From: Azolla caroliniana
Lineage: Eukaryota; Plantae; Polypodiophyta
Length of the DNA: 64,000 bases
Direction: 5' to 3'
NCBI GenBank assembly: GCA_043228905.1
Contig: JBHGNT010000014.1
Location: 14,818,001 to 14,882,000, forward strand
Shown here: piece by piece, positions 2,929 through 55,451 of the stretch
Layout of the letters: each line of letters opens with the position of its first letter
Position numbering within the stretch: position 1 is the first letter of the stretch
Position numbers and translations under genes: made by a program
Notes under the pieces: generated by a model
What the model saw: the letters and a program-made list of their open reading frames with translations, nothing else
What the model was told of the DNA's origin: nothing
The model's database searches: none

Positions 2929-3595
2929 TGTCTTGATGTTGTACGTCTAGTGGGGGAAAAAGTGTGGATACACGCACATTACACAAATACTTTTAAAAAT
3001 GAAAATAAATCAATAATAAATAATCCTAGGGCCTAATGGCATTGAGTGTGTAAAGAGGGGTGCAAGTAAGATTTGAGCCTTGCACCTCCAAGATAGGAAG
3101 CAATTAGCTTACCACTAAAGCTACTACTAAGTGATTCAAATTTTGTATATTTTCTTATGATATTTAGTATTTCATAGGAAACAAATATACAAAAACGTAT
3201 GCACAAAACCATGGTTTTAAGCCCATGGTTTTGTGCATGACATAAGCAAAACCGTGTGCACAAAACCATGGTTTTAGCCCATGGTTTTGTGCATGTCACA
3301 AGCATGGAGAGACCTATAAAAGCCACTAGTTAGTCTTGTGTAAGGGGGGGTCAATTTGGAGATCATCACCATCATCAACAACAATAATATAATACTCTTC
3401 TTATTCTTCTTCTTGACATCTATCTTCTTCTCAAGTGTAAAATATTCGATCTTCTCAAGTTAATAGTGTTTCCTTTTCCTCGACTCCTACATACACATCG
3501 TCATCTTTTCGACAATTTTGCAAACGTCCTCCCCAGTCCGAGACCTCGGTGGTTCCGCTCAAGCGAAGCATCCACGCACACGCATATTCGCGACA
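2929..3595 (+). repeat. 5' LTR
   Basis: Direct repeat of 5949-6479; TG...CA ends; TATA cctataaaag near 3313. Confidence 0.9.
3061..3130 (-). ncRNA. tRNA-like Pol III module inside LTR U3 (antisense to the element)
   Basis: Minus strand reads TAGCTTTAGTGG (A-box-like) ... GGCTCAAATC (decayed B-box); homologous to 6089-6158 and 48497-48570. Confidence 0.55.
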
Positions 3596-3600
3596 TCTTT

Positions 3601-3618
3601 TGGTGAACCTGACGTGAA
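3601..3618 (+). other. Primer binding site complementary to tRNA-Trp
   Basis: TGGTGAACCTGACGTGAA versus the complement of the plant tRNA-Trp 3' end as recalled, TGGTGAACCCGACGTGAA (one CpG-type mismatch); 5 nt after the LTR end. Confidence 0.85.
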
Positions 3619-3756
3619 GAGCGACAAGGGAGGATGAAGATGGACGAGGAATATCTCATGGAGGCAATGTCAAAGATGATAATGGAATATTCGAGAGAAG
3701 GGAGAAGACAAGATGCGGCCCAACAAGTTGTCGAAAGCGTGGTCGAGTGAGTCAGC

Positions 3757-4236
3757 TATTTCAACGGGGGCATAGTCCAAAAAATTTTAGACACCTACAA
3801 TGCCGAGATGGATTCGAGAGGTGTGAATGAAACTATGAGGTTGGAGTACTTTTGTCGGGTGGTGGCTGAACCGATCTACAAAGAGGTAAAAGAGCTTCGA
3901 GAAGCTCATGATTCGTGGGTGACTTTCACGGAAGCTCTATTGAAGGCATATGGCTACGAGAGACCAAAGGGACGAGGTCGACGTGAGTTCGACCAGTGGG
4001 TGGCATCGGTGAAGACCCACCAAGGTGCGACACAAGCATTCCTAGACTTCGAGCGTCGTTTTTCTCAACTGTCGAAGCATGAACAAAGATTGGTGGGGGT
4101 GGATAAGGTCTTGTTGTTCGTGAAGTCGATCGATCGAAGGGAAAGGATGGCCATTGGACTCAAACTCGAAGAAGATTATGGTGCAAATGGCCTCACCCAG
4201 GATTGGAGAAAAGTGGAAAGAGTATGGCCTCATTGA
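3757..4236 (+). pseudogene. Degenerate gag-like coding region
   Basis: YFNGGIVQKFLDTYNAEMDSRGV...DSWVTFTEALLKAYG resembles a retrotransposon capsid N-terminus; lies just after the PBS; interrupted by stops and frameshifts. Confidence 0.7.
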
Positions 4237-5948
4237 TAAGAGGAAGATGAGATTCTCTTCAGCAACAACACAACCCACGAGGGATGGTGAAAGGAGGATG
4301 GGATACGACTACACACAACCACCTAAAGAAGAAAGCTTGAAGATGGAAGGTTCGACGGTACTCAACATAGAGGCCTTTGTAAAGGAGGCATATGAGAGTT
4401 TAAAGGTGCAAGTCAAGGCCAAATAGAAGCCTAGAATGGAGCCAAAACCGAGACAGTTGGTGATCGAGGAAGAGAAGACCTCCCGGGAAATGCAGACTAA
4501 TGATGCGACCAATACGAAGCCACAGGTTCATTACGACAGTACCACGGGAGAAGGTGTGAAACAAGCCACCTTCTTGACTTACGGAGGAACGATGGTCAAG
4601 AGAAAGGCCGAAGACTCGAGAGCGGGAAATGCTACTTTAAGAGTGGACGAGCATTTCGGAACACATGTTGTGTCCGAAATATCGAGTGATGAAGGTGCAA
4701 GCACGAGCAAAGCTTGCGTGATCGAGGGATGTAAAGAGTGTGAGGTCGACGTAATTGAGGCGGTAGCCACGAGGAATGACATCAAGTCGTAGATGGCTCT
4801 AGAAGAGTCCACGGCGGATGACCATGTCAAGACTTTCCCAACACTTGATCTAGAGACTTGGGCCGTTGCGTCTGAGAGGCAACATGAGACCCAAGAGACG
4901 GAAAGTGGTGGGGAAGCAAATATTGAAGACAATGCAAATAAGAACGTTGAGTGAAAGATGGCTATGGATGAGAAGAAGGTGACCGATGGTGCCGAGGTTC
5001 TCCCCACAATTGTTCTTGAGACTTCGGCAGTTGTGCCCAAGTGTCAATGTGAGACTGGAGAGGCGGAAGGTGGCGGCAGGAAATCGAAGGATCGAAACGG
5101 CGATGAGGAGGATGGCCACAGAGGAAGGGATCCCTCCACACCGGTTCCGGATACTTCGGCAGTTGTGCCCGAGAGCCAACATAAGACTGGAGAGATGTAA
5201 GGTGGCAGCGAGGAGATGAGGGTCGAAGCCGGCACATACGGATGAACGGTGGCCAACAAGGACGCCAAAAACAAAGCTACAATAGAGTTCGATGAAGAGC
5301 CAAAGAGCGGCAAGAAAGGAAGAACCGGAATACAATCCGGATGGAAGATGACGCGGTTGGTATTCCGACCCGAACGAGAGTTGATCAACCAGGCCTGACC
5401 CAACCGAAAACCGGATGGAAACTGACCCGGACGAAAGTCGATCGTCTGAGTCCGATTCGATCGAATGCAAATCCAGACAAAGGCCAACCAAGCCAAAAGC
5501 TAATTGATCGAGACCAATCCAAACAGAAGTTGAGCCGACCTAGCTGGAGGTCGAAGCAGATGAGCTGCGACACCCGATCGAGGCTGGTGAGCATAAGGAA
5601 AGGCAAGCATGAGACGAGAAATGATGATAAAAGAAAGTTAGGTGACCAAGGAGATGGCCAAGATGAAGGTGGCACATGCACAAGGCATGAAGCGTTATGC
5701 TCGGGAGGAGCAAAGGGAGCCATGACAACCAGACATGGCAATAAAAAACGTGAGCAAATGATATGGTGGATCAGATGGCAACGGTAGTTTGGGTAGAAAC
5801 AAGAGTCATGTTCGAAGTAGACAACAAAAAGATGGTACGGGCGAGGCGCAAGAAAGGAGGAAATCAAAGACCAACCACCTTTGACCCCGCCACATCACTC
5901 TTTTCTTCTTGGCACATACCGGAGGATGTGCGGTTTGGTGGGGGTGGA

Positions 5949-6479
5949 TGTTGTAATGTTGCACGTCTAGTGGGAGAAAAAGTGAAAAAGTGTGGTTCCA
6001 CGCACATTACACAAATACTTGTAAAAATGAAAATAAATCAATAATAAATAATCCTAGGGCCTAATGGCATTGAGTGCGTAAAGAGGGATGCAAGTAAGAT
6101 TTGAACCTTGCACCTCCAAGATAGGAAGCAATTAGCTTACCACTAAAGCTACTACTAAGTGATTTACATTTTGTATATTTTCTTATGATATTCAGTATTT
6201 CATAGGAAACAAATATACAAAAACATGTGCACAAAACCATGGTTTTAAGCCCATGGTTTTGTGCCTGACATAAGCAAAACCGTGTGCACAAAAACATGGT
6301 TTTAGCCCATGGTTTTGTGCATGTCACAAGCATGGAGAGACCTATAAAAGCCGCTAGTTGGTCTTGTGTAAGGGGGGGTCAATTTGGAGATCATCACCAT
6401 CATCATCAACAATAATATAATACTCTTCTTATTCTTCTTCTCAAGTGTAAAATCTTCGATCTTCTCAAGTGTAATAGTG
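5949..6479 (+). repeat. 3' LTR (truncated)
   Basis: Matches about 2929-3468 and then abruptly joins a LINE fragment. Confidence 0.9.
6089..6158 (-). ncRNA. tRNA-like Pol III module inside 3' LTR U3
   Basis: Minus strand A-box-like TAGCTTTAGTGG (6151-6140) and B-box GGTTCAAATC (6107-6098). Confidence 0.55.
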
Positions 6480-6480
6480 C

Positions 6481-7050
6481 AGGAGAAACTAGGTTTGAGA
6501 TTCATGTTTAGAATCCATCCTGTTTGGGGGGCTCAATTGACCCCTTTTCGTGGCATAAAGTAAGCGAAACGTAATCACAGTAGCATTTTCCAACAGTCAT
6601 TTCCCGGTTGGAGTTCTCGCACCACAAATTTGGCAAGTAAGACTTTTGATTGTGAGAGGGGATCAATAAGACCCAATCCCCCTCTCAACTTAGGTGTTGT
6701 GAGTATACACCACGCCACCTTGGCGCAAGTTACATGATCTTCCTTACCATACCAAATGTAGTTGTGTACCAGTCGTTGAATTTGATGTATACTTTCCTTG
6801 GAGATTGTCCAACATGATAGACTGTACCATGTTGTTGCGAGTAGTACCTGCTTTACCACTATGATGTGACCCGCTAGCGACAGTTTTTTCGAACTCCAAT
6901 GTATCAACTTTTGTCGAATGGAATGGATAACTGGTGCAATCATAGTCTTCGGCGGTATGTTGAAACCAATTTGGAAACCCAAATATTTGGTGCTCGCTCC
7001 TTGATATCTCAATAATGGTTGGGGACATTATCCATAAAAGGATATCTTTG
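6481..7050 (-). mobile_element. L1 LINE ORF2 fragment (post-RT region)
   Basis: ORF 6575-7012 contains KYLGF, WSSKKLSLAG, KVAW and PKLRGGLGLID, typical of plant L1 ORF2. Confidence 0.9.
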
Positions 7051-7337: not shown

Positions 7338-9288
7338 AACATATAAGCATAGATTCAACGTTGTATAGACATGTGGTTATTAATAGAATCTTTAGTCTAT
7401 AACGTAGTGTGAATGTAAAAGTTTAGAAATTTAGAAGGTTTGTATTATGAAGACCATGAGTAAAAGTAGACATTGCCATGAACATTTGGCCCATGATACT
7501 TTTCCCAAAATGTATGTTAGAAAACAATATGGTGAAAATAAATCTAAAATATTCTCTTACCTTCAATTAATGATGCAAGTCAATTCTTGTGGTTTAGGTT
7601 GTACAAATTCATGATTGAGCTTGGTTATTTGCTTTAGGGTGCATCTACAATCTTAACTTGTGTCACTCCATTAATAAAGCTCTTTGTCTTTTCTTGGAGT
7701 TGGTGGACAACACCTTGCAAGATATTATCTGCCATTAAATAGATGGTTTCACTTTTTATGATGAATTCAAGGTAAATTGGTATATACAATCATCATAGCA
7801 TTTCCTTTTATAGATTCAACTAGAATCAAATATCTCAATGTGTTTGTTGTGATAAACTATGGAGAACGTGGCAAAACCAATACAAAGTATTTTATTTTAC
7901 TACCAACACAATTGGATGGATGGATTGTCACTAAAACCTTGTCTATTCACATTTGTATTTAGTCAATACTTCAATGTGCAATACCCCTCAGAATTTTAAT
8001 GGGACACAGGAAGAACAAGTAAAAAATAACAATTGTTTCAATATACAACCAAAATTGGCCGAAATATCATTTAGCAACAAGGAATTCACAAACAGGCACT
8101 TGGTAGTAAATGAAGGGTGGAGGGGTTATATGACACTTGTATGCATGCCTATTAGAGAACATTGTGGGCAGAGTTGACTTTTGTCATTTTTTATTTAAAC
8201 ATGTAAGCATAGATTCAACATTGTATAGAAATGTGGTTATTAATAGAATCTTTAGTCTATGACGTAGTGTGAGTGTAAAATTTTAGACATTTAGAAGGTT
8301 TGTATTATGAAGACCATGACTCATGAGTAAAAGTAGAAATTGCCATGAACTTTTGGCCCATGATACTTTTCCTAAAATGTATGTTAGAAACAATATGGTG
8401 ACCCCTCTTTTCGGTGTAGGCCCCAAGAGCCGACTCGTACGAGGCCACATTGAAGGGCATTGCCTTGGATATAGGTAGCTTCTTACATTAAGTTAGGCCG
8501 CAAGGCAATGTAAGTGGCTCATCTTCTTTGGCTTGATCGGAGGAAGTCTCCCCGATGTGTGTATAAATCTCCTTATAGACTCTATGTAATAATCCTTCCT
8601 AACTAATGGGAAAGTAGCTTTACTTTGAAAAAAAAAAAAATATGGTGAGAATAAATCTAAAATATTCTCTTACCTTCAATTAATGATGCAAGTCAATTCT
8701 TGTTGTTTAGGTTGTACAAATTCATGATTGAGGTTGGTTATTTGCTTTACCGGTGCATCTACAATCTTAACTTGTGTCACTCCATTAAGTATTGCTCTTT
8801 GTCTTTTCTTAGAGTTGGTGGGCAATACCTTGCAAGATATTATCTGCCATTAAATAGATGGTTTCACTTTTTATGATGAATTCAAGGTAAATTGGTATAT
8901 ACGATCATCATAGCATTTCCTTTTGTAGATTCAACTAGAATCAAATATGTCAATGTGTTTGTTGTGATAAACTATGGACAACACGACATTACCAATATGA
9001 AGTATTTTATTTTGCTACCATGACAACTGGGTGGATGGATTGTCACTAAAACCTTGTCTATTCACATTTCTATTAAATCAATACTTCAATATGCAATACC
9101 CCTCAAAATGTTTATGGAACGCAAGCAAAACAGGTCAAAAAACAAACAATTGTTTCAATATACAACCAAAATTGGCTGAAATATCATTCAGCAACATGGA
9201 ATTCACAAAGAGGCACTTGGTAGTGAATGGAGGGAGGAGGGCTTAGATGACACTTGTATGCGGGCTTATTGGAGAAAGTTGTGGGCAA
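7338..9288. repeat. ~830-bp tandem duplication (7338-8170 / 8198-9288), second copy carrying an insertion
   Basis: Collinear similarity from aacatataagcatagattc to ttgtgggca; about 27-bp filler between the copies. Confidence 0.9.
8402..8638 (+). mobile_element. 5'-truncated LINE/SINE-type poly(A) insertion
   Basis: Absent from the paralogous site in copy 1; ends in poly(A); 10-bp TSD aatatggtga (8392-8401 / 8639-8648). Confidence 0.9.
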
Positions 9289-15989: not shown

Positions 15990-16450
15990 AATGTCTTTGT
16001 GGTAGGAGTCCTACTATTACTAGTGACTACTACTACTACTACATGACAATTGGGTCCTAAAAGGACTAATGAATTCTCAAATCATTTGCACTTCCAAACC
16101 AAAAAGGAGGCAACAAATTTCTTTGTGGTAGGAGCCCCACTATTACTAGTGACTACTACTACTACTACTACTATTACTACATGATAATTGGGTCCTAAAA
16201 AACTCATGAATTCTCAAATCATTTGAATTTTGCACTTCCAAGTTCCTAACAACAAAACAAAACACAAAAAGAGAAAAAGGGGGAAGAATCACAAGAAGAA
16301 GGGGAAAAAAGTAAAGTAAAGAAAAGCCTAATGTATGTACAGGGTTGGTCTTGCAGATGACCTTTGTGATAGGACTACTACTACTATTACAATTACACGG
16401 CAATTGGATCATAAAAACTCATAAATTCTCAAATCATTTTTGCACTTCAA
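15990..16450. repeat. Three degenerate ~120-bp repeats with (CTA)n cores upstream of the Sec14 gene
   Basis: ctttgtg..agga...ctactact...aattgg...aattctcaaatcattt recurs near 15994, 16121 and 16362. Confidence 0.8.
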
Positions 16451-21342: not shown

Positions 21343-21763
21343 TAACAATCGGCAATGGTTCGGTTTGAACTGAACCAAACCACGAAATCGTGATTTAACG
21401 GTTTAAACAGTTTGATTCGAGTTTTGTTAAATGGTTCAATTCGGTTTGGTTTGATGGTTTAGGGTTGCCAGATGATTTTTAAAAAATATTCTTTTACACG
21501 ATCTTTAAATTTTTGAAAATGTAAATTTTGAAATAATGAAAAAGTTTAAAATTTCAAAATTGAAATTTAAAATTTTGAATTTTGACCTAACTTGAAAACC
21601 GAAACCGAACCACAAAATCGTGGTTTTAACATTGTGATTTTTTTGTAACGGTTCGGTTTTAACAGTTTTGGTTTAAATGGTTTCGTGGTTGGGTTCAGTT
21701 TGGTTCGTTTCAAAAATTTTAAACGGTTGGGTTTTGACACTCTCGAACCATTGCCGATTGTTA
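21343..21763. mobile_element. hAT-type MITE
   Basis: TIR TAACAATCGGCAATGGTTCG / CGAACCATTGCCGATTGTTA; 8-bp TSD attgcaat/atcgcaat; subterminal AACCG/CGGTT repeats. Confidence 0.88.
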
Positions 21764-26175: not shown

Positions 26176-28904
26176 ATCTGCAGACTTTGCTGTGCCTCTC
26201 TTTGCGTCTGTAAGCTGCTGTAGATCCGTGTTTGGAATACCATACTTTCTCTGAGCTATGATGAAGATGCTAGATTTCCAACACTTGGACTGATCTCCTT
26301 CTTGGTGATGTCAAACACTAAACGCTGCGTTCTTTCTGAGCTCTGCAGAAGAAGATGGCAGTTTCTGAGTCTGTGTGCAGTTAATTGATGTGGTGTTTGG
26401 TCATGTGATGATGACATTTCTATTCATATCTTAGGACACCTTCGGACATGGCAATCATATGCCATGGATGAGATGAAATTTGTTATCTGATGGCTATGAA
26501 TGGTCCGAATTGCTCTTGATTCTTGGTCTTGCAAAGACAGGGAATAGCAGAAGCAGGCGGTAGAGGGATAGAGGTGAGGGGGTAATGTGTTTGTGCAATT
26601 GAGTCAAGTGATGATGACATTCTTTATAACAATCTTAGGACACCTTCTGACATGGCCATGCTATGGATGAGAAGGATATGGTTATCTGATGGCTCTCAGT
26701 TGTAAAATAGTGGCAACGGTTTTCTGTACACACCTGCTGAGTGTTTACTTCGGCATAGCAATCAGGAAGTTCCTGAGCTCATTAGACCAAAATGCAATGC
26801 CTTACCCTAATTTGATGAGGGAGCTTTGCTTATCTATGATTAGCTCTAAAACTGTTCCAATCTCTTGACCGGAGCTGCCGATCTCTTACTATGGCAAGAT
26901 CCATGTCTGGGTTGGAAAACTTAAATATCGATGCTTGCTCGAAGGCCTGTTTTGGATATGGCATGGCAGCAGGACCACGCAGAAGACAATCAAAAGCATA
27001 TGTGTGCTGCCATTGAAGCTCCTCTGCTCAAGCTAATCCATATTAAGCACACTGATAATAGTGATTTAGCACCAAATCTGTCATGAGCTGATCCAAAAAA
27101 TGCAACGCTACATGGATTGATCTTGAACAGTGACATTTCTGTGGAAAGAGTGGATGGATGCCCCACATATTTGCAGTGCATAAAGGATATATTGACCATT
27201 TCATAAACCGGGTTCACAAGAGTCAGTCCATATTTTATTTTCCTGTAAATCATCCGCTTTACCTGCAATGATTAACCGAAAGCATCTAAATCCTACTCCC
27301 ATGGCCCAAACACCTTGAAATGAACACAGCATATTCAAATCCTAAATATATTTCATTCGTAGGGTAAACTTCTTATTTCCATGCCCATGCATGGCAGATT
27401 GATACATCGTGAGTAAACGGTGCATGAATTATGGGTGAAATATGGGCTAGGATATGGTGGAATGCGGAATGCAATATTGCTTCCTAATCTGAGACAGAGA
27501 AATTCATGCCCAAGAGGCCCATGCTTCATAATGCCGTAAAACCAGCATTTTAAATGTAATGAAGGTCATGGTAGTATTGCACCTAGAATGATAATAGTCG
27601 AATCAATCCAAATATGCGAGTAAAAAGCTGAAAGTTGTAAACATTGACTCCTATGGTCGAAGTGTATACAATTATTGATGACACATGGGGGTTATCCTCT
27701 TGATTCTCTGCAGAATTAACTCTTTAACTATTCTTGGTGGTGTTCTACATTAGTGTGCAATTTAATTGTTCAAATGGAATTGGTGCATGCAATCTATCTT
27801 CGATGAGAATTATGTCGATTGGTTGCGAGTGAGAGCTTCAGGAAAACCTTTGAAGTATATAATTGTCTGATTACCTTCACTTAGAATTGAAAGACTTGAA
27901 AGAAAGGCCTCAATTCATCATCTAAATAATTGGGAAAAGGAGAGATCACCACTAGGCCTTGGCAATTACACCATATAAAACTTTTCATGAGAACTTGAGA
28001 GAAGTATAGAAATCTATGTCCCCACATGAAAATCTAGTGACAAAAGTTTTCTCAAATTCATGATGGCCAAACTAATGTAAATAGGACACACTAATCATGA
28101 GGATGTACCATTGACCTTCAAACAAGAGGAGGGGTCAATATTGTTACTTGCTCTTAGAGTACTTTTCACCCTAGGCTAAGAAGAATCATAAAAGATGCCA
28201 ATTGCCTCTTGTAAAAATATTTTCTTGCTTGTACATGCTCTTTCGGTGTTGGTGTTAGTGTTAATGTTAAGTGTTAGTACTCAGAAAGCAAGACTAAATG
28301 ATAGAAGCGTAACAATGCAAAGATTACGAATTGATAGATCTTTTGAACACTAGGGTAAACAACATCGACTGTCTCTTCGAAACATTTCTCCTTGACATGC
28401 CCTTCTACTATTAGTTTTAAGTACAAAATTGAGTGGGAACCCCATAAAGCCAAATGTTACAAACAAGAATGCATGACAATGCAGGCATTTTAGGATATTA
28501 GGATTTTTGCGAAAAGATCAAGTGCCGCATGGGAATTTGATTCCTTGTCATGGGAGAAAACTGCGTTTCACGAGGGCGAGATATTTCTCGTAGATTTGTA
28601 GATTTCAGAAGACATTGTTGGGTGCTAGCACATGGATCAAGCAAAGCCTTTACCGTTAAAAAGGACATCATGCTTCTTGTTCTTCAAAGGAGGAGGAGGA
28701 GCCTTTCAGGTTCATTGGTAGCCAAGTGAATGCCTTCCGGGTTCTCCTGTGGTTCTTATTCTCTCTCTCGACCAGCCGACCAAAGTGGTTTTAACAAACA
28801 ACTAGGTCAGGTCCGGTCCGGTCAAGGTCAAGCTATTCGGAGGAGATTTGTCATCGAAGTCATTGGTAGGGAAGGTAATGCCCGTCAAGTTCCTTCGTGG
28901 TTCT

Positions 28905-38042: not shown

Positions 38043-38405
38043 CAACAATTGACAACAGTTCGGTTTGAGAGGGTCAAAACCGAACCGTTTAAAAAATTCG
38101 AAATCTAAACTAAACCGTTAAAAATTCAAATCATTAAAACCACGGTTTTGTGGTTCGGTTTCAGTTTTCAAGTTAGGTCAAAATTCAAAATTTAAATTTT
38201 TAGAATTAAAATATTTCATTATTTTAAATTTTCAAAATTTTAAAGATTTTCCTAAAATGTGAGAATAAGGCCTGAAAATGAAAATATTATTTAAAAACTT
38301 TTTTTTTTAATTTAAATTTAAAAAAAAATAAAAAACCGTTAAACCGTTTAAACCACGGTTTCTAACTGTTGAAACCAAACCAAACCGTTTAAAAAACCTG
38401 AACCG
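38043..38405. mobile_element. hAT-type MITE, inverted and truncated copy of the 21343/46476 family
   Basis: Decayed TIR caacaattgacaac; internal ttttcaagttaggtcaaaattc is the reverse complement of the other copies; second TIR not found. Confidence 0.75.
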
Positions 38406-46475: not shown

Positions 46476-46913
46476 TGACAATCGGCAATGGTTCGGTTGA
46501 ACCGAACCGAGAAACTGCGGCTTAACGATAAAAAACGGTTCGGTTCGGTTCAGGTTCGAGTTTTTTATAACGGTTCGGTTAGGTTAGGTTTTAACAATTT
46601 CATGGTTTTTAAAAGAAATTTAAGTTTGTTTTGAAACAACCTTTTCATTTTTAAGCCTAATTCTCGCATTTTAGGAAAAATCTTTAAATTTTGAAATAAT
46701 GAAAATTTTGAATTTTGAATTTTGAATTTTGACCTAAGTTGAAAACTGAAACCGAACCACGAAACAGCAGTTTTAACTGTTTGGATTTTTTTCTAACGGT
46801 TTCGGTTTAAATGGTTTCGTGGTTCGGTTTGGCTTGGTTCAAGTTTCAAACATTTTAAACGGTTCGGTTTTGACACTGTCAAACCGAACCAAACTATGTA
46901 TTGTCGATTGTTA
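46476..46913. mobile_element. hAT-type MITE
   Basis: Termini TGACAATCGGCAAT / ATTGTCGATTGTTA; perfect 8-bp TSD cttgacac (46468-46475 / 46914-46921); AACCG subterminal repeats. Confidence 0.9.
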
Positions 46914-47993
46914 CTTGACACCTAGATAATGTGTTGTATCTATGCAAATGACACATTCATTGACTGTGTCACTTGAATATGGTTGAGGCCTGAAAAAAAA
47001 ACCAATGGCCAGTAAATGGCGACTAATGTATATAAGCTCTTTCAAGACACACGTTGGCCATAAGTTTTTTAGGGGGTTAATTGAATAACGTGTTGTATTC
47101 TGAGCAAATGGAATGTTGATTGTGTCACTTGAATATGGTCGAACATAAACAAATGGCCAACTTGAGGGAGGCTTATATGAGCTCTTTCGAGGCACCCTTG
47201 GGTTGGCCATAGAATACTTGTATAAGCCCGTGTGATGGCAAAACTCCCTTTGCTTAGACGTGATTCTTATGAACCCTTTCAAAAGCGTGTGAAAGTGGCC
47301 TCGATTTGATACTCACCCATCTTCAGCTGCATTACGAACAAACAAACATATATTTTCTAACAGATAACGGATGTTTTGTTGAAGGATTACAGGTGCCCGT
47401 TATGAGACGACTTCATTAGGATGGGTTATTACTTGCCCCTCATCAATTGGATAATGCTTCTCGAAAGGTAGGGATTGCACAAATGACACCTCACCTTCCC
47501 TAAAGTAGTGGCAATGAGTTAGTGTCACAAAAGTCGAATGTCTCTTTAATTGATTTGAAAACCTATAAGACGGAAACTATCGATTTTAGTTTTGCTATCC
47601 CAACTTGTTGTGGGTACCAATGGTGCGGGTGGTTGAAGCCATCCCATTTGGCCTATATTGTCTTTTACGAATTCATCTCCAAGAGTGCAAGTTGGCATTG
47701 TTTTGAAGTAAAGCATTTTCTCTTTCTATTTACATGTTTATATTCACACCCCTTGATGTCAAATCATGATCAATACAAAGTTTCTGTCAAGGAGCGTGGA
47801 TGTCACACACTATACCCCTTGATACCAATGAGTATTTGATACAAGTTTGCGGTTGCCTATCTTTGCTTCACAGTTCTATTTCTCAAAAATATATATATTT
47901 GCCAACTAAGCTAAACGCCCGTTGTCGTGAAGATCCGTCACTACGCGCGGATCGTGAGGCGGAACCGCCGGGGTTCTGGACCAGAAGGATTTA

Positions 47994-48350
47994 GAGTCGA
48001 TACAAGCTTTGGCGAGAAAGTACTTAAGATAGATTGGGAAAGAGAGAAGTTGAGATTACATGATTGATTTGAAAACGAATTTCTTCCTCTTAATTTTCAT
48101 AAAAAAAAAACCGTGTTTTTTCTCCTCCCCCTTCCCTCTTTTATAGATGCTCTCATGCATATGATGCATGTGAGTCGATACAAGCTTTGGCGAGAAAGTA
48201 CTTAAGATAGATTGGGAAAGAGAGAAGTTGAGATTACACGATTGATTTGAAAACGAATTTCTTCCTCTTAATTTTCATAAAAAAAAACCGTGTTTTTTCT
48301 CCTCCCCCTTCCCTCTTTTATAGATGCTCTCATGCATATGATGCATGTGA
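47994..48350. repeat. 178-bp tandem duplication within the solo LTR (duplicates the TATA/R region)
   Basis: 47994-48171 and 48172-48350 are near-identical. Confidence 0.95.
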
Positions 48351-48496
48351 GGGTACAAGACATGCATAAATTGCATGTTTGCCATTTGGCGCTTATGTAT
48401 TACATGTGGTGCATGATAACCATGTCACTCATTTTAGTTCTCATGTATGAGAATTTACATGTAAAACTACAATGATAGAAACATAATTTCAACTAA

Positions 48497-48570
48497 ATAG
48501 CATGGCTTAATGGTAAGCCATTTGACTCCTAACTTGGAGGTGCAAGGTTCGAATCCTTACTTGCCCTCCT
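48497..48570 (+). ncRNA. tRNA-like Pol III module (A box TGGCTTAATGG, B box GGTTCGAATCC) in solo LTR
   Basis: A box 48503-48513 and B box 48546-48556 at tRNA spacing; D-stem TGGCTT/AAGCCA; T-stem AAGG/CCTT; CTCCTAA anticodon-like loop; acceptor and anticodon stems poorly paired. Confidence 0.65.
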
Positions 48571-49082
48571 TGTATATGTAAATATGTATATATATTTATT
48601 TATCTAGTCGTCGGACGCCGGTTCGCCGGATACCGGTGCCGGATGCCGCCGGATCATCGGCTCCATTGCCGGTCCGGTTTTGGTTGGCCAAAACCCTTTA
48701 CAAGTAGTTAACCCACCTCCACTCTTAGTTCAAGTTACCTTGAACTCTCTATGCTCCACACATAGACACAAAGATAATATCTTTTGCTCCACGTTATATA
48801 TGATAAGAGTTGTATTTGTCGTGCCTATGTGGGATATCTCACAATTTTTCTCCTTTCCTTTTACAAACTTTATACCCTCATATCTTGACATTTAGTTGTC
48901 CGTTTCTCGTGTAATAAAGTGCATTCGAAACCTCCATCATTTTGTACTTAGATATTAAATCTATTTAAAATGTTATCTTCACAATTATTGTACTACGTGA
49001 TTCATACTCGATTTCGTACGTTTTATAGGATTTTCACACTATTGCCGAAAATCTTCACGACACCGTTTTATAAATGGTTTGC

Positions 49083-49699: not shown

Positions 49700-50296
49700 A
49701 CCAAGAACAAATGTTGGTGTGTTAAATAAGGAAACTAATTTTTGAATGTTGAAGTTATGGTGGCAACCACCAACAAGGCTCTAATGTATTGGGATCAAGA
49801 TTGGGAATTTTCAAAAAATGTTAACGAGCTTCATTTATCCCCATTTCATGTTTCAAAACTCTATGAAACATCATATATCAAAACCATTTAAAGATTTTGG
49901 AACTTAGTGGTAGTTATGTTTGGATTTGATTTTGTCAATCCCTATATGCATATACATCTTTAAAATAACTTGGTTACACCGTTGAACACTTGCATGACAA
50001 CTTACAAGGACAACTTGTGGCAATTGTTAAGGGAAATAATCTCATATTTTTTAAGTTTTAACAACCTTATAAGGCTTAATATTTCCAATTTAATTACCAA
50101 GATTAATACTATTAACAATAAAACACAGACATAGATACGGAATAGCCTTCTGCACGATGAAGACCACCATATCTCCTGTCACCATTCAGCCTAACGTTGC
50201 TCAGGCTTTTGTTGCTTAGCCTTCCACCACTCAGCCTGCCGCCACCCAACTTGTCGCCACCTAGCCTGTCGCAACCTCACCTACTGTAGCCGATGG

Positions 50297-51665
50297 TTGT
50301 TCAAATCATCTAGAGGGATGTGTAGGGATTTCCGTTTATCCCACAGTAGATGCGGAAAAGTCATTTGTCCCCTTCAACTTACCTTACCTGCTACAACCAA
50401 TCCAGTTGCCGCGGTCAGCCTTTCAACCTCCTCCATAACTCCGGTCTTCTTCAATGCAACGGCTAACCAGGAGCAATTGTTGCGTCGTTGCGAACAGTTT
50501 AACCGGGGCTCCCGTGTAGCTAACCCGGATATCACACCTATTTCGGACAACGTAGTAGAGGTTCTATTGTCAGAACAAGATAGAGCACAGGTTGTAAGAG
50601 AGATTCAGCGTCTAGAGGAGAGGACTATCATTGTGCAAGTTTTGGGCATTCATCCTCGTCGTGCTGATCTTCATTTGCTATTGCAAGCCGCTTTGAAACA
50701 AGATCTTGACAACATCACGGATATCCAAATACTTGGTCGGAACTATTATCAAGTGGAGTTCGAGCTCGAACGAATAGTACCGATCTTGCTAGAGAAGAAA
50801 AATGTGGTAGTCAAGGGTGGATGGGTTTTATTCCACAAGTGGATTCACAACTTCTCCGCAAACCAAGTACTTCATGATTTCGATTCATATCATACATGTG
50901 TGGTAGTGTTTCCTAATTTACGTAAAGAGTGGGTGCCTTTTGTGCATCTAATTGCGAGTACTATTGGTAAAGTCTTGGAAACTTATGATAAGCCTTGTCA
51001 AAACGAGGATAGGTATATGGGAGCTACATCAACAAAACTTTTCTACATCAACAAAACTTTTGATTTCTAAGTCTACAGTTTTGCCCTCGAATATCTTGTT
51101 GCCCAATTTACTTGACTCAAGACAAGAATCTTATTCTCAGAAAATATTGTATAGGGGTTTGCCAAATCAATGTTTTCGGTGTTTTGGATTTGGTCATTTG
51201 GCAAAAAAATGCCCTAAATTTAATAAAGACACAGACAAACATGTACCCAATACAAATATAGTCCCGTATCATGTTAGATCTGAGGGTTGGACGAAGGTCG
51301 GGCATAGGAAAACATCTTCACAAGTATCTTATGACAAGCCTCATCAGGTGTCAATTAATAATTTAAAGGAATTCTCCCCCTTACAGAATAGGTATTCTAC
51401 CCTCCATGTAGAAGAGGATCGATCATTGTTACCGTACGAGATGTACGGGTGATTGATAATTGTGATAAGTGAGGGTGAAAGATGTAATGTGTTGATATGT
51501 ATGTGTAATGTTATACAATTATGAGTGTGAATGTAAGTGTGAGTGTGGTGGATACAAAGAGGTGTGAGTGAGTGACTAGGTGTGAATGCCCAAGGGGCTT
51601 GCACCCTTGTGTATCTACGCTTTTGTACCTATTTAACCCCTTATGGGGAATGAATGAATACAATG

Positions 51666-51721
<56 letters not shown>

Positions 51722-52186
51722 CCTTATGTTGAACCCCCTTGGGAGGGAGGTGGAGCCATTCTAGGCACCACCCCCCACCCTGCAATGCTTCTCAATGCTT
51801 GTCAACATCTTCATGATCTCTCTCACCATCATACTCTCCATCATCTTCATTATTACACCATGTCTATCTTCGTCATTATCAATCATCATTACCATTAACC
51901 CTAACCCTAAAACCTACAACAAAAACCTATTTCTAATCAATCAAATATTATGGGTGTTGTAATGGCTCAATGAGTAGATAAACTCCCTTGTGCTAGATTT
52001 CAATTCATAGTTTCACGGGATACCTTGACACTTCAAACCCCTCAAAAGCAAGTTAAGGATCATAGGGTGCATAAGTATGCAGGGAACTATCTGCTTTTAA
52101 AAAGACAAGCAAGAGCTCAAGAGGGTGCCCAAAAAAGGCCGTCAAGATGCTCTCCTTGAGAAAGGACACCAATAAAATCTATGTAA
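50297..52186 (+). pseudogene. LINE ORF1 (RRM/DUF4283-like region plus CCHC zinc knuckle), frameshifted and interrupted
   Basis: IQILGRNYYQVEF...IASTIGKVL; CFRCFGFGHLAKKC; TAA at 52184-52186 just before the ORF2 ATG. Confidence 0.85.
51442..51918. mobile_element. Probable solo-LTR-like insertion within LINE ORF1
   Basis: Compositional break with TGTA...TACA ends, a (CT)n run and a TATA-like ctatttaa; TSD not clearly resolved. Confidence 0.5.
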
Positions 52187-52187
52187 G

Positions 52188-55100
52188 ATGGACACCTTAC
52201 ATCTTCTTTCCTGGAATGTGCAAGGCCTGGGTGGTCAGGGTTTTCGTAGATTTAAATGACTCTTACGTGCGGATTTAGGTACTGCTAATGTAGTCACTAT
52301 TGATATTCTTTTTTTACAAGAGCATCACTTATGCATGGATAGGATTCGGAAGTATGGATCTATTTTACTAGGACGGTGGACTCAATTCTGGATTCCTGCC
52401 TTTGCCCCCACTGGCCGACAGGCTAGGTTATGCATTGCTATTAAACAACATTTGCAGTCTATCATTGTGTCAGCTACTACTATCGTGAATAAACAGGCAC
52501 AATTCCTTATTGTAAAAATAAGATCCCAAAAGGTTGGCCTTATGAATCTCTATGCCCCTAATTCAGCGACAGAAAGGGAAAAGTTATGGCTATCTCTTTC
52601 TGATTATGCGAGTTTAGCGGATTGTTGGTTGGTGGGAGGCGACTTTAATATGATCAAGGATGTTGCTGATAGAATGGGAGGTATAACTACTACAATTTCA
52701 GGATGGGAAGCTAAGTGTTGGGACTACTTTTGTTTTACCTATGGTTTGTTAAATTTATGGAAGGTGCACTCATTTTCACGTATACAAGGATCCCCTCAGT
52801 TTTCTAGATCAGATGGAAGTTTGGTTGCTACAAATTTGTCTCGACTAGATAGATTTTATGCTAGTAGTGTTTTTTGGGAAGCAGGTGGATCCATAGGAAT
52901 TATTCCGGGATCAGCTATCTATGATCACGATCCTCTGAAGTTACATGTTACATTTACTAAGAGGCAATACTCGAGGCAATTGTGTATCCCTCCTGCATTG
53001 TTATCTGATGATAATCATCGGATGTAAATCACTCAGATATGGTCAAATTACAATTTCTTGGATGACTGTTTGCTTAGCAATATGGTTCATGCCATACTCG
53101 ATACAAAGATTCTATTCACAAAAATAGTTTTAGCATATGTTTATCACTACAATTCAGAGATTGCTAACCTACGTCGTGCTCTTGCAACATTACAACAATT
53201 GTTGGAAAGGTATCCAACTTCATCTATATTATGTTGTGATTTGCAGCAAGTAAAAAACAGTTTAAAGGAAAAACAGGAAGCACACTCAATGTTCTTTTAC
53301 TATCGTAATGTTGCTTGCTGGTCACAAAGGCAAGATTGAGTCAATAAGGAATTCTTCAATCAGTTTAAATGGAAAACTAGACCTCCTTCTATTACTTCTT
53401 TGAAGCGGCTTGATGGATCCTATATGTCAGATGTCTCTATGATGCGAAGTATAATCTCAGATTATTATTATAACTTATTGTCTGCTGAATCTTTTACGAT
53501 AGACAATTTTAACAAGAAACAAGTTGTTCTTGCAACTATTGAACAAAAGGTTACAGATGTAATGGCCTCTCAGTTATTACAACCGTTTACATCTCAAGAG
53601 GTCTTTGCTGCGGCTAAATCCTTAGGTAAGGATGTTTGTCCAGGAAAAGATGGAATAGGAATTGGCTTCTATTTGCATTATTGGGATTTTCTTGGTCCTC
53701 TCCTTACTAGAGCAGTTAATTTAATATTCTCAACGGGTAATATGCCGACGGAATGGACAGAAGGAATCATATATATGAGTCCTAAATCGGATGCTCAATG
53801 TGATGAAGTTTCCAAGTGGCGGCCAATAACATTGCTTAATGTTGTGTATAAGATTGTGGCGAAAACTATGGCAGTTAGACTATGACTTGTATTGCCGTCT
53901 ATTATTCATGAAACATAATTTGGTTTTCTGCAAGATAGAAGTATTTTTTATAATATCTTTTTGTTCTGGGAAATGGTTGCATTAGCTCAACAACATAAAC
54001 AACAACTTGTAGTATTATTGCTTGACTTTGAAAAGGCATATGATAAAGTGGATTGGGACTTTCTTGAGGCAGTGCTGTCAAGATTAGGTTTTCCCGCCAC
54101 ATGGATAAAAAGTGTTTCATCCCTTTATCAATTAATGCAGTTAACTCCTAAGACAGGAGGAGCATGGTCACCCTCTCTAAAGTGGTTGTTCTTGAATGAC
54201 ATGAAAATGCCAAGGAGGAATCTTGCATCCAATAGATTTTTGCTAGGAATCATAAGAGCGTGGGATGCGATTAAATCATTTTTGCTACAGGACAAACCTT
54301 CTACTTGGGATGCATTACTTAATCAGCCTATGCTTGCCAATTCTCTATTTCGGGATAATGCAGGAAAAGTATTGGACCTGCGTACTCACCTTGATTGGGG
54401 TAAATTGGATAATGGGCCAGTTGCATTTGTAAGAACTTGGACTCATTTTCAACAAATGACGCAAGAAGATCGACTTGCATATCTACAATCAGTTCATGGT
54501 GCCAAGATAATGATGACCACCTTATCAACAACATATTCTTCATTTTTTACAACCTTCCAACCTAGCCAGGAACATCTATGGTTTGGATGCTTCACAAATG
54601 ATACATTAATGGTTGTTAAAGGCGTTTCACCTAATCGGTGCATTTCTTATTTTGAGGTCCTAGACAAAAATAGATTGCAATCTTATACCTTTGATTGCAA
54701 TTATCTACAGGACTTGCAAAGTGCACCAGTTAGAGTGGTTGCTAAAACTGGAAAGAAATGGATCCTTGATCCTTATCCATCAGTTGCTCATATGTGTGAT
54801 ATCTTCTGGCTATACACAAAAGATCCTATTGCAAGATTAACATGGGATTCAGGGGGTTGGATTTGGTCATACTCCTTGGGGGAAAAGATCGTAAAGGTCC
54901 CCTTCTTTCAGTACTCAGTAAAACTTGGAAGATCATTATTGCTCTCTCAGAATGTAACGATACCAGTAGCTCAGAAACATTGGGCCAATTGGGGTGTTTC
55001 CACTTTGCATTTGAGAACCTATTGGAAATGGATATGGTCATTCAAGGGGCCAACCAAATTTATTCTCTTTCGGTGGTTATTAGTGCATATGGCACTACCC

Positions 55101-55451
55101 GTTGGTCATTCATTGAAAGGGAATGTAGCACCCAATTTGTGGCAATGTGGCTTTTGCCATGAACCTCGGGAGACTACCAAGCATGTCCTATGGTCTTGTT
55201 CTTTTGCTCAACAAGTATGGAAGAAAGTCATGTCTTTATTCCTAACAATCAATGTAGGTTGCCTATTCTCATGGGGATCAGCGATGTGGGGAGTATTACA
55301 CTCTGGCTTGATGTTGTATGAGGCAAACGATGTTCATGAGGCAATGACAATACATAATAGAATATTGATATTAGTTAGTCCCTTCCAGCAACCTCACAAG
55401 CAGGTGCAATCTGTCCAAATTTGGAAAACTGTGACCACAATAACATTATGA
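52188..55451 (+). pseudogene. LINE ORF2 (AP endonuclease, truncated RT, zf-RVT) with premature stops
   Basis: SWNVQGL, LQE, NLYAPN, GGDFN, SRLDRFY, DH; PGKDG, WRPITLLN, LDFEKAYDKVDW; CGFC..ETTKHVLWSC. The QGxPLSP and YADD region is missing. Confidence 0.92.

What the first reader, a model, noticed from the sequence alone, without database searches (positions are those of the whole stretch)
48497..48570. Conserved antisense tRNA-like Pol III module in the U3 of two divergent LTR families (a tRNA analogue of Cassandra's 5S?)
Seen: the solo LTR 47923-49062 (minus) and both LTRs of 2929-6479 (plus) are otherwise hard to align, yet share a ~70-nt block at 48497-48570, 3061-3130 and 6089-6158. It is always antisense to the element and about 180-200 bp upstream of the LTR TATA. 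It has an A box, a B box (perfect GGTTCGAATCC in the solo LTR), an identical core cttggaggtgcaagg, a CCT triplet in the anticodon-loop position, and a D-stem that covaries (TGGCTT/AAGCCA vs TAGCTT/AAGCTA). Established: Cassandra TRIMs carry Pol III 5S modules in their LTRs, and TFIIIC-bound B boxes can act as chromatin barriers. Inference: this lineage maintains a tRNA-derived internal promoter, either producing an antisense RNA or insulating the LTR promoter from silencing. I do not know of this being described.
Basis: partly seen in the sequence, partly recalled or inferred. Interest (0 to 1): 0.85.

Follow-up and report, generated by a model that had tools for sequence, protein, structure and literature searches.

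The report
Backwards tRNA promoter in Gypsy LTRs
Two distantly related jumping-gene families of a likely fern keep the same 70-base tRNA-like piece, facing backwards about 190 bases before their own promoter, where it likely docks the polymerase III machinery and would shield that promoter, a variant of a known trick of tiny retrotransposons.

Summary
The block is real. It is the best-conserved tile between the two LTR families (z 28; TATA about 4). It is antisense in 9 of 9 copies seen and 185-202 nt before the TATA in 6 of 8 that have one. Read depth across it matches its flanks in a very high-copy family, so it is part of the LTR, not a stray SINE. The elements look like Phygy-type Ty3/gypsy (4-bp NCGN target site, likely Trp primer); family B is gag-only. 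It is not a tRNA: the anticodon stem never pairs, CCT is in 4 of 9, and covariation is unsupported. Family A keeps a strict A box (5 of 5), families B/C do not (0 of 4), and the key B-box cytosine is T in about 25% of contig depth. Best reading (0.45, inferred): a selected TFIIIC/Pol III site that shields the Pol II promoter. tRNA-in-LTR is already described (Helenus, PMC10886601), there in short TRIMs and, in the entries I viewed, in sense. The scan had no look-alike sequence; antisense tRNA-like units were noted in fungal Gypsy. New variant; function untested.

The parts
47923..49062 (-). Solo LTR of family A, TG...CA with a 12-bp terminal inverted repeat
   Evidence: empty-site contigs in runs X1 and X3 skip 1144 nt = 1140 + 4
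47919..47922 (+). 4-bp target site duplication (NCGN type), left copy
49063..49066 (+). 4-bp target site duplication, right copy
48503..48570 (+). tRNA-like module, tRNA positions 8 to about 76, antisense to the element
48503..48513 (+). A box, strict match
   Evidence: no consensus-breaking variant at 1% or more
48546..48556 (+). B box, perfect in this copy; C56 (48550) is T in 25-27% of family depth
48536..48570 (+). About 10-bp inverted repeat (48536-48546 with 48560-48570) with the B box in its loop; not a tRNA stem
48316..48322 (-). TATA box of family A LTR (second copy at 48139-48145 inside a tandem duplication of about 178 bp)
2929..3595 (+). 5' LTR of family B (667 bp), preceded by an NCGN 4-mer
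3056..3123 (-). Module in the 5' LTR: A box one base off consensus, B box with T54C
3315..3321 (+). TATA box of the 5' LTR
3601..3618 (+). Primer-binding site, same type as in family-A locus L001; likely tRNA-Trp (recalled; also the main Phygy primer)
3640..4236 (+). Gag-like ORF, broken by a stop at codon 37; no pol in the 2.3-kb internal region
5933..5948 (+). G-rich PPT-like tract
   Evidence: same tract before the LTR in L003 and L005
5949..6479 (+). 3' LTR of family B, truncated before U5
   Evidence: 22 mismatches in 522 columns to the 5' LTR
6084..6151 (-). Module in the 3' LTR: B box matches consensus, A box one base off

Best explanation
The block is a tRNA-like A/B-box segment that sits backwards in U3 of related Phygy-like Gypsy LTRs and is likely kept by selection as a DNA docking site for TFIIIC and the Pol III machinery, which would open or shield the element's own Pol II promoter about 190 bp away. 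Shown: presence, orientation, spacing, excess conservation and loss of tRNA folding. Inferred: tRNA origin through one old capture (a SINE head or Helenus-like LTR); TFIIIC binding; a barrier against host read-through, cryptic starts or spreading silent chromatin entering the 5' LTR from the flank. Any short antisense Pol III RNA would be a by-product. Families B/C would act through the B box mainly, as yeast ETC sites do.
For: Unbiased tile test: module z 28.5, next-best non-overlapping tiles TATA 3.8-4.4 and U5 3.3, of 31 tiles. Conservation is patterned like a type-2 promoter: within family A, 1 of 15 positions vary at the A box and 20-23 (A15G, still consensus) against 19 of 48 in the flank and anticodon arm (Fisher p 0.024, regions chosen after seeing the data). 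Between A and B, B box plus 3' arm 79%, A box 60%, anticodon arm 52%, flanks 40-47% (15 pairs). A-to-B-box spacing is unchanged in 9 of 9. Distance to TATA is 185-202 nt in 6 of 8 although A and B intervening DNA does not align. Loose ends show a further flank type whose A box differs only at degenerate positions 9 and 12 (3 and 5 contigs). In yeast, bound Pol III complexes block read-through and 5' extensions of neighbouring Pol II transcripts, and ETC sites bind TFIIIC alone (PMC4228148, passages); mouse B2 SINEs act as mobile chromatin boundaries (PMC8136502, abstract).
Against: C56, whose mutation cripples TFIIIC binding in yeast, is T in 25.5% (X1) and 27.2% (X2) of depth, more than the G57A change of the same CpG (11%, 21%): either methylation decay after insertion or an amplified B-box-dead sublineage; I could not separate these. 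Strict B box in only 5 of 9 copies, strict A box in 0 of 4 B/C copies. The least variable stretches (positions 43-53 and 66-76) lie partly outside the boxes, which TFIIIC binding does not explain. In B2 SINEs the abstract points to CTCF, not TFIIIC. No ChIP, methylation or stranded RNA data were available. Six of nine copies were found with a pattern fixing 22 module bases.
Confidence: 0.45

Rival explanations
1. The tRNA-derived DNA has been co-opted as a Pol II upstream element: the inverted repeat around the B box binds a host transcription factor, and Pol III factors no longer matter.
For: Most invariant positions are 43-53 and 66-76 (0 of 11 variable at 66-76); a 5-bp palindromic core is invariant in 9 of 9; fixed distance to TATA; degenerate A box in B/C and frequent C56T.
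Against: The A box, about 25 nt away from the palindrome, is spared in family A and a variant changes only degenerate positions; box spacing is kept.
Confidence: 0.18
2. The selected product is a short antisense Pol III RNA with a 3' hairpin that regulates the element's RNA, in the way foamy-virus LTRs make Pol III small RNAs.
For: The hairpin is 96% paired over 9 copies and its changes are one-sided G-C to G-U on the module strand; the module strand folds better in 8 of 9; solo copy folds at z -3.5. Precedent: Pol III miRNA genes in simian foamy virus LTRs with tested A and B boxes (PMC3993851, passages).
Against: No two-sided change in the hairpin, and C-to-T is the commonest mutation anyway; the first T4 run lies 14 to 123 nt behind position 61, so no fixed terminator; antisense RNA should invite silencing (inference).
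Confidence: 0.15
3. The module works in the element's own genomic RNA, where U3 at the 3' end reads as the complement of a tRNA and holds the primer, or forms a packaging or strand-transfer hairpin, as the U3 half of the Ty3 bipartite PBS does.
For: Antisense orientation in U3 is what this needs; Ty3 uses U3 to pair with the primer's T and D arms (PMC5371799, passages); Drosophila Gypsy has a second 3' PBS (PMC1635307, abstract); a gag-only family would keep RNA signals of its helper (inference).
Against: The primer's 3' end read from the L001 PBS implies a T stem that does not match module positions 49-53, and positions 61-72 match at 4 of 12, so the conserved core is not complementary to the primer. 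The D and anticodon arms of the host primer could not be compared.
Confidence: 0.12
4. The block is a neutral relic of an old SINE insertion, or was swapped between families by recent LTR recombination.
For: LTR mosaics exist: L003 joins a B-type internal end to an A-type LTR start; boxes are broken in single copies; only nine copies were compared in full.
Against: Identity is uneven inside the block (core 15 of 15 in the unbiased window copies, anticodon arm near background), unlike a swapped or decaying segment; no SINE body, tail or TSD; no free-standing copy in 73.5 kb searched; Gag N-termini of A and B barely align (8 of 24, E 0.11).
Confidence: 0.1

Closest known systems
Helenus TRIMs / TRIMp3 (Kojima 2024, PMC10886601)
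   Same: tRNA-derived sequence inside the LTR, conservation centred on boxes A and B, no working tRNA, proposed origin by SINE insertion into an LTR; one plant family, in Selaginella.
   Different: Helenus are 311-1263 bp non-coding TRIMs thought to use the Pol III promoter for their own RNA; in the supplement entries I viewed (part 2 of 11 and one passage) the boxes read in sense. Here the module is antisense, in 0.67-1.1 kb LTRs that keep a TATA box, in Gag-encoding elements.
Cassandra TRIMs (5S-derived Pol III promoter; described in PMC10886601 and 10.1101/2023.07.14.548913, passages)
   Same: Captured Pol III gene segment conserved within otherwise variable LTRs of plants, ferns included.
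   Different: 5S type-1 promoter that replaces the Pol II promoter and transcribes the element; here a tRNA type-2 segment pointing away from a retained Pol II TATA.
Phygy non-chromovirus Ty3/gypsy (Neumann 2019, PMC6317226)
   Same: 4-bp NCGN target site, tRNA-Trp primer (81% of Phygy), Gag related to Physcomitrium and Riccia retroelement Gag-like proteins.
   Different: Phygy was defined from Physcomitrella by pol phylogeny; no pol was available here, the host is likely a fern, and no LTR tRNA module is mentioned in the passages read.
Foamy-virus LTR Pol III small-RNA genes (PMC3993851)
   Same: A and B boxes with a hairpin inside the LTR of an element whose genome is made by Pol II.
   Different: Those have terminators at the hairpin base and proven miRNA products; here no fixed terminator and no RNA shown.
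TR-GAG non-autonomous elements (as described in PMC13570524, passages)
   Same: Family B: LTR, PBS, Gag-like ORF, PPT, LTR, without enzymes.
   Different: Carries the tRNA-like module; Gag is followed by a long low-complexity tail in intact relatives.

Membership tests
Helenus (TRIMp3) | tRNA-like sequence within the LTR with conserved A and B boxes | tested here: met
   strict in family A, partial in B/C
Helenus (TRIMp3) | Short non-coding TRIM (screened below 1000 bp; known range 311-1263 bp) | tested here: not met
   family B element over 3.5 kb with a Gag-like ORF; family A LTR alone 1140 bp and followed by PBS and an ORF start in L001
Helenus (TRIMp3) | Pol III promoter placed to transcribe the element itself (sense) | tested here: not met
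   antisense in 9 of 9 copies, TATA retained in 8 of 9
Cassandra | 5S rRNA-derived segment in the LTR | tested here: not met
   no 5S Rfam hit in the window
Functional tRNA gene | Cloverleaf with paired acceptor and anticodon stems | tested here: not met
Free tRNA-derived SINE insertion | Body, tail and own TSD; copies outside LTRs; absent from most LTR copies | tested here: not met
   6 of 6 pattern hits in LTR context; no extra copy in 73.5 kb; depth level with flanks. A free SINE elsewhere in the genome is not excluded: only 12 of 138 loose-end rows were shown
Phygy (non-chromovirus Ty3/gypsy) | 4-bp NCGN target site duplication | tested here: met
   solo LTR both sides; NCGN also beside the B 5' LTR, L006 start and L004 end
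Phygy (non-chromovirus Ty3/gypsy) | tRNA-Trp primer-binding site | tested here: inconclusive
   PBS found at 3601 and in L001; Trp assignment is recalled, no host tRNA set was available
Phygy (non-chromovirus Ty3/gypsy) | Placement by RT/RH/INT phylogeny | not testable with these tools
   no pol in the window's elements, the six loci or the 6 close homologues scanned
Active Pol III / TFIIIC site | TFIIIC occupancy or Pol III transcript | not testable with these tools
   no RNA holder listed, only unstranded contigs

The most novel reading that the evidence does not exclude
A very high-copy Gypsy lineage and its gag-only parasites carry a captured tRNA promoter turned backwards at about one nucleosome's distance from their Pol II TATA box and use host TFIIIC as a built-in insulator, seeding thousands of Pol III factor sites through a fern genome.
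Probability: 0.35. Interest if true: 0.8.

Novelty: new variant of a known kind. Interest (0 to 1): 0.52.

Why it matters
Known small-RNA captures in plant LTRs (Cassandra, Helenus) are read as a way to transcribe a tiny element by Pol III. Here the captured unit cannot do that, yet it is better conserved than the TATA region. If it is a TFIIIC barrier, it is a cis-acting anti-silencing or anti-interference device in a dominant retrotransposon, and gives a simple reporter test of whether TFIIIC sites insulate in plants. It also predicts thousands of tRNA pseudogene calls and ETC-like sites in this host. If it is a neutral relic or an ordinary enhancer, it is a useful annotation only.

Tried and rejected
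No whole genome was held, so no genome-wide LTR collection or R-scape-type test. ARAGORN and Rfam found no tRNA. Module pattern: 0 hits in viral contigs and genome contigs; Gag-based locus searches, which would have been unbiased for the module, found no relative in genome contigs (78 candidates) or viral contigs (16 candidates). RNA: no RNA holder listed; contigs of X13 and X20, RNA only by guess and unstranded, cover the module and say nothing on expression. tRNA-Arg(CCU) identity rejected as unshown. D-stem covariation rejected (one search used a misregistered structure and is ignored; one search used wrong L001 coordinates and was redone). A weak model hit at 16220-16245 (12.7 bits) lies in a tandem-duplicated stretch without an A box and was dropped. 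The 3-copy dispersed repeat in the window is AT-rich and not tRNA-like. An HIV-1 U3 tRNA-like element is recalled; the two papers found (PMC3187697, PMC10730233, passages) did not describe it. A fern genome paper (PMC6786969, passages and 9 supplement files) gave nothing on LTR tRNA modules; its main supplementary PDF was too large to read and may bear on tRNA over-counts. Literature searches for a prior description: (open-licence PMC and bioRxiv only; Repbase not searchable, and PMC10886601 says many Repbase LTRs resemble tRNA parts but analysed only TRIMs).

Full report
Setting. The window is plant nuclear DNA. A DGD1 exon has its best named hits in ferns (58-60% identity; Physcomitrium 55% over 73% of the query) and groups with a fern clade at 100/100, on a long branch. 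The host is likely a fern; one earlier scan note on this genome guessed mosses. No whole genome was held, so evidence comes from the window, six metagenome loci and four-run contig pile-ups.

The elements. The solo LTR spans 47923-49062 on the minus strand, with a 12-bp terminal inverted repeat and a 4-bp CCGT duplication. Contigs of runs X1 and X3 skip exactly 1144 nt here, so the site is empty in them. Its internal 2.3 kb holds a broken Gag-like ORF and no frame longer than 163 codons. Six close full-length homologues carry no RT or integrase Pfam domain; of 17 remoter homologues scanned, 8 hit DUF4100, 2 of them also an aspartyl protease, and 1 hit Retrotrans_gag, with named ones from Riccia and Physcomitrium. 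A 4-bp NCGN site and a Trp primer are the marks of Phygy in PMC6317226 (passages and one supplement row). I call the families A (solo LTR) and B (gag-only), Phygy-like, without pol-based proof.

Is the block real? Yes. Of 31 70-nt tiles of the solo LTR scored against the B LTR, the module tile scored 81 against a null of 18.7 plus or minus 2.2 (z 28.5); its two overlapping neighbours reached 8.7 and 11.8, TATA tiles 3.8 and 4.4, U5 3.3, and the rest 3.0 or less. This test uses only window copies. A 22-base pattern found 6 more loci in metagenome contigs; 6 of 6 are LTRs of A (L001, L002, L004, L006), B (L005) or a mosaic type C (L003), and all carry the module antisense. That search cannot show how many family members lack it. 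Contig depth can, roughly: the module bin is 461,000 in X1 against 343,000 and 272,000 in adjacent bins and 33-36 outside the LTR, with the same pattern in X2 and X3; listed joints that skip part of the module have depth 66 or less. Summed depth is not a copy number, but it suggests thousands of LTRs, most with the module. A model of the module found no copy outside LTRs in the window and loci.

What kind of sequence? The spacing from A box to B box is that of a type-I tRNA in 9 of 9 copies (the box patterns are recalled, B box as in PMC4228148). It does not fold as a tRNA: the anticodon stem has no Watson-Crick pair in any copy, the acceptor 5' strand is missing, and ARAGORN and Rfam are blank. 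CCT is the majority triplet in young family A but occurs in only 4 of 9 copies. The recurrent structure is a hairpin of about 10 bp with the B box in its loop: 96% of cells pair, 5 of 9 pairs never vary, none shows a two-sided change. The D-stem covariation is one pair and not above shuffles.

Is it under selection? Outside the columns fixed by my pattern, A-A pairs (10) keep 92%, 84% and 81% identity in the A box, anticodon arm and B box plus 3' arm, against 68-73% on the promoter side and 43-54% on the far side. A-B pairs (15) keep 60%, 52% and 79% against 40-47%. In the pile-up, 1 of 15 positions at the A box and 20-23 vary at 1% or more, and that change stays in consensus, against 19 of 48 in the flank and anticodon arm (p 0.024, post hoc). 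The distance to the TATA box is 185-202 nt in 6 of 8 copies that have one; the other two are 143 and 260. Uneven conservation within the block argues against neutral decay or a recent block swap.

Results against the Pol III reading. The strict A box holds in 5 of 5 A copies but 0 of 4 B/C copies; the B box in 4 of 5 and 1 of 4, though the two defective B copies each have a different single change. C56 is T in 25.5% and 27.2% of depth in X1 and X2, T63A breaks the T stem in 19% and 12%, and the most invariant stretches are 43-53 and 66-76. C56 lies in a CpG in young family A, so decay of silenced copies is possible, but G57A is rarer and I have no baseline, because the whole-LTR variant table was cut (60 rows not shown). 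There is no fixed T-run terminator (14-123 nt). No expression or binding data were available.

Mechanism. In the 5' LTR the module lies between the host flank and the TATA box and points outwards. In yeast, Pol III complexes and TFIIIC-only sites stop read-through and 5' extension of neighbouring Pol II transcripts (PMC4228148, passages). I infer the same role here, at 0.45. Rivals are a Pol II factor site on the inverted repeat (0.18), a functional antisense Pol III hairpin RNA as in foamy-virus LTRs (0.15; PMC3993851, passages), a U3 RNA signal like the Ty3 bipartite PBS (0.12; PMC5371799, passages; weakened because the primer end read from the PBS does not match the core), and relic or swap (0.10).

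Known systems and novelty. Helenus is the described tRNA counterpart of Cassandra (PMC10886601; parts 1-4 and 6 of 6 read, supplement part 2 of 11 and searches). It fails membership here on size, coding content and orientation. That paper expects TRIMp3 and their Pol II helpers not to share long LTR stretches, and notes without analysis that many Repbase LTRs resemble tRNA parts. Two later papers that cite it add nothing on antisense forms (PMC13570524, PMC12859917, passages). Searches found no description of an antisense module before a Pol II TATA in Gag-encoding plant elements. Earlier scan notes hold no look-alike sequence but report antisense tRNA-like units inside fungal Gypsy elements and tRNA ends in place of the PPT in other families of this genome (not checked).

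Verdict. A real, conserved, LTR-integral tRNA-like module; new variant of a known kind; function inferred, not shown. Interest 0.52.

Noticed in passing
window 47994-48184 / 48172-48359: Tandem duplication of about 178 bp inside the solo LTR that doubles the TATA region; depth there is lower and only one listed contig (X3) shows a matching back-joint, so it seems rare in the family.
   Followed up: partly
window 47920-49065: The solo LTR is an insertion polymorphism: empty-site contigs in runs X1 and X3.
   Followed up: yes
window 2929-6479 and 47923-49062: Phygy-like marks (4-bp NCGN site, Trp-type PBS) in a likely fern; PMC6317226 described Phygy as specific to Physcomitrella.
   Followed up: partly
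window 48325-48460 and 3185-3310: Arrays rich in CATG/TGCA motifs lie between the module and the TATA box in both families although the sequences do not align; they resemble RY elements bound by B3 factors (recalled).
   Followed up: no
window 26400-26696: Two tandem C/D snoRNA-like copies; the second reaches the Rfam cut-off for snoR31/Z110/Z27 (45.6 bits; repeat).
   Followed up: no
window 50195-55451 and 6575-7027: Degenerate LINE with endonuclease, RT and zf-RVT hits; a second LINE-like fragment without Pfam hit lies just behind the truncated 3' LTR.
   Followed up: partly
window 21476-21749, 38058-38298, 46628-46885: AT-rich dispersed repeat of about 300 bp in three copies, MITE-like, not tRNA-like.
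   Followed up: partly
L005:883-1070: A family-B LTR end is followed directly by an inverted copy of the PPT-side internal end instead of a PBS.
   Followed up: no
L003:520-900: Mosaic element: family-B internal 3' end and PPT joined to a family-A type LTR start, with the module but no TATA behind it.
   Followed up: partly
window 47923-49062: Listed variant places show about twice as many C>T as G>A on the plus strand in three runs (13:6, 22:11, 16:8), that is a G-to-A excess on the element strand; partly due to this copy's private changes.
   Followed up: no
window 7338-9287: Tandem duplication of about 0.85 kb (91% identity) with a 240-bp insertion in the second copy.
   Followed up: no
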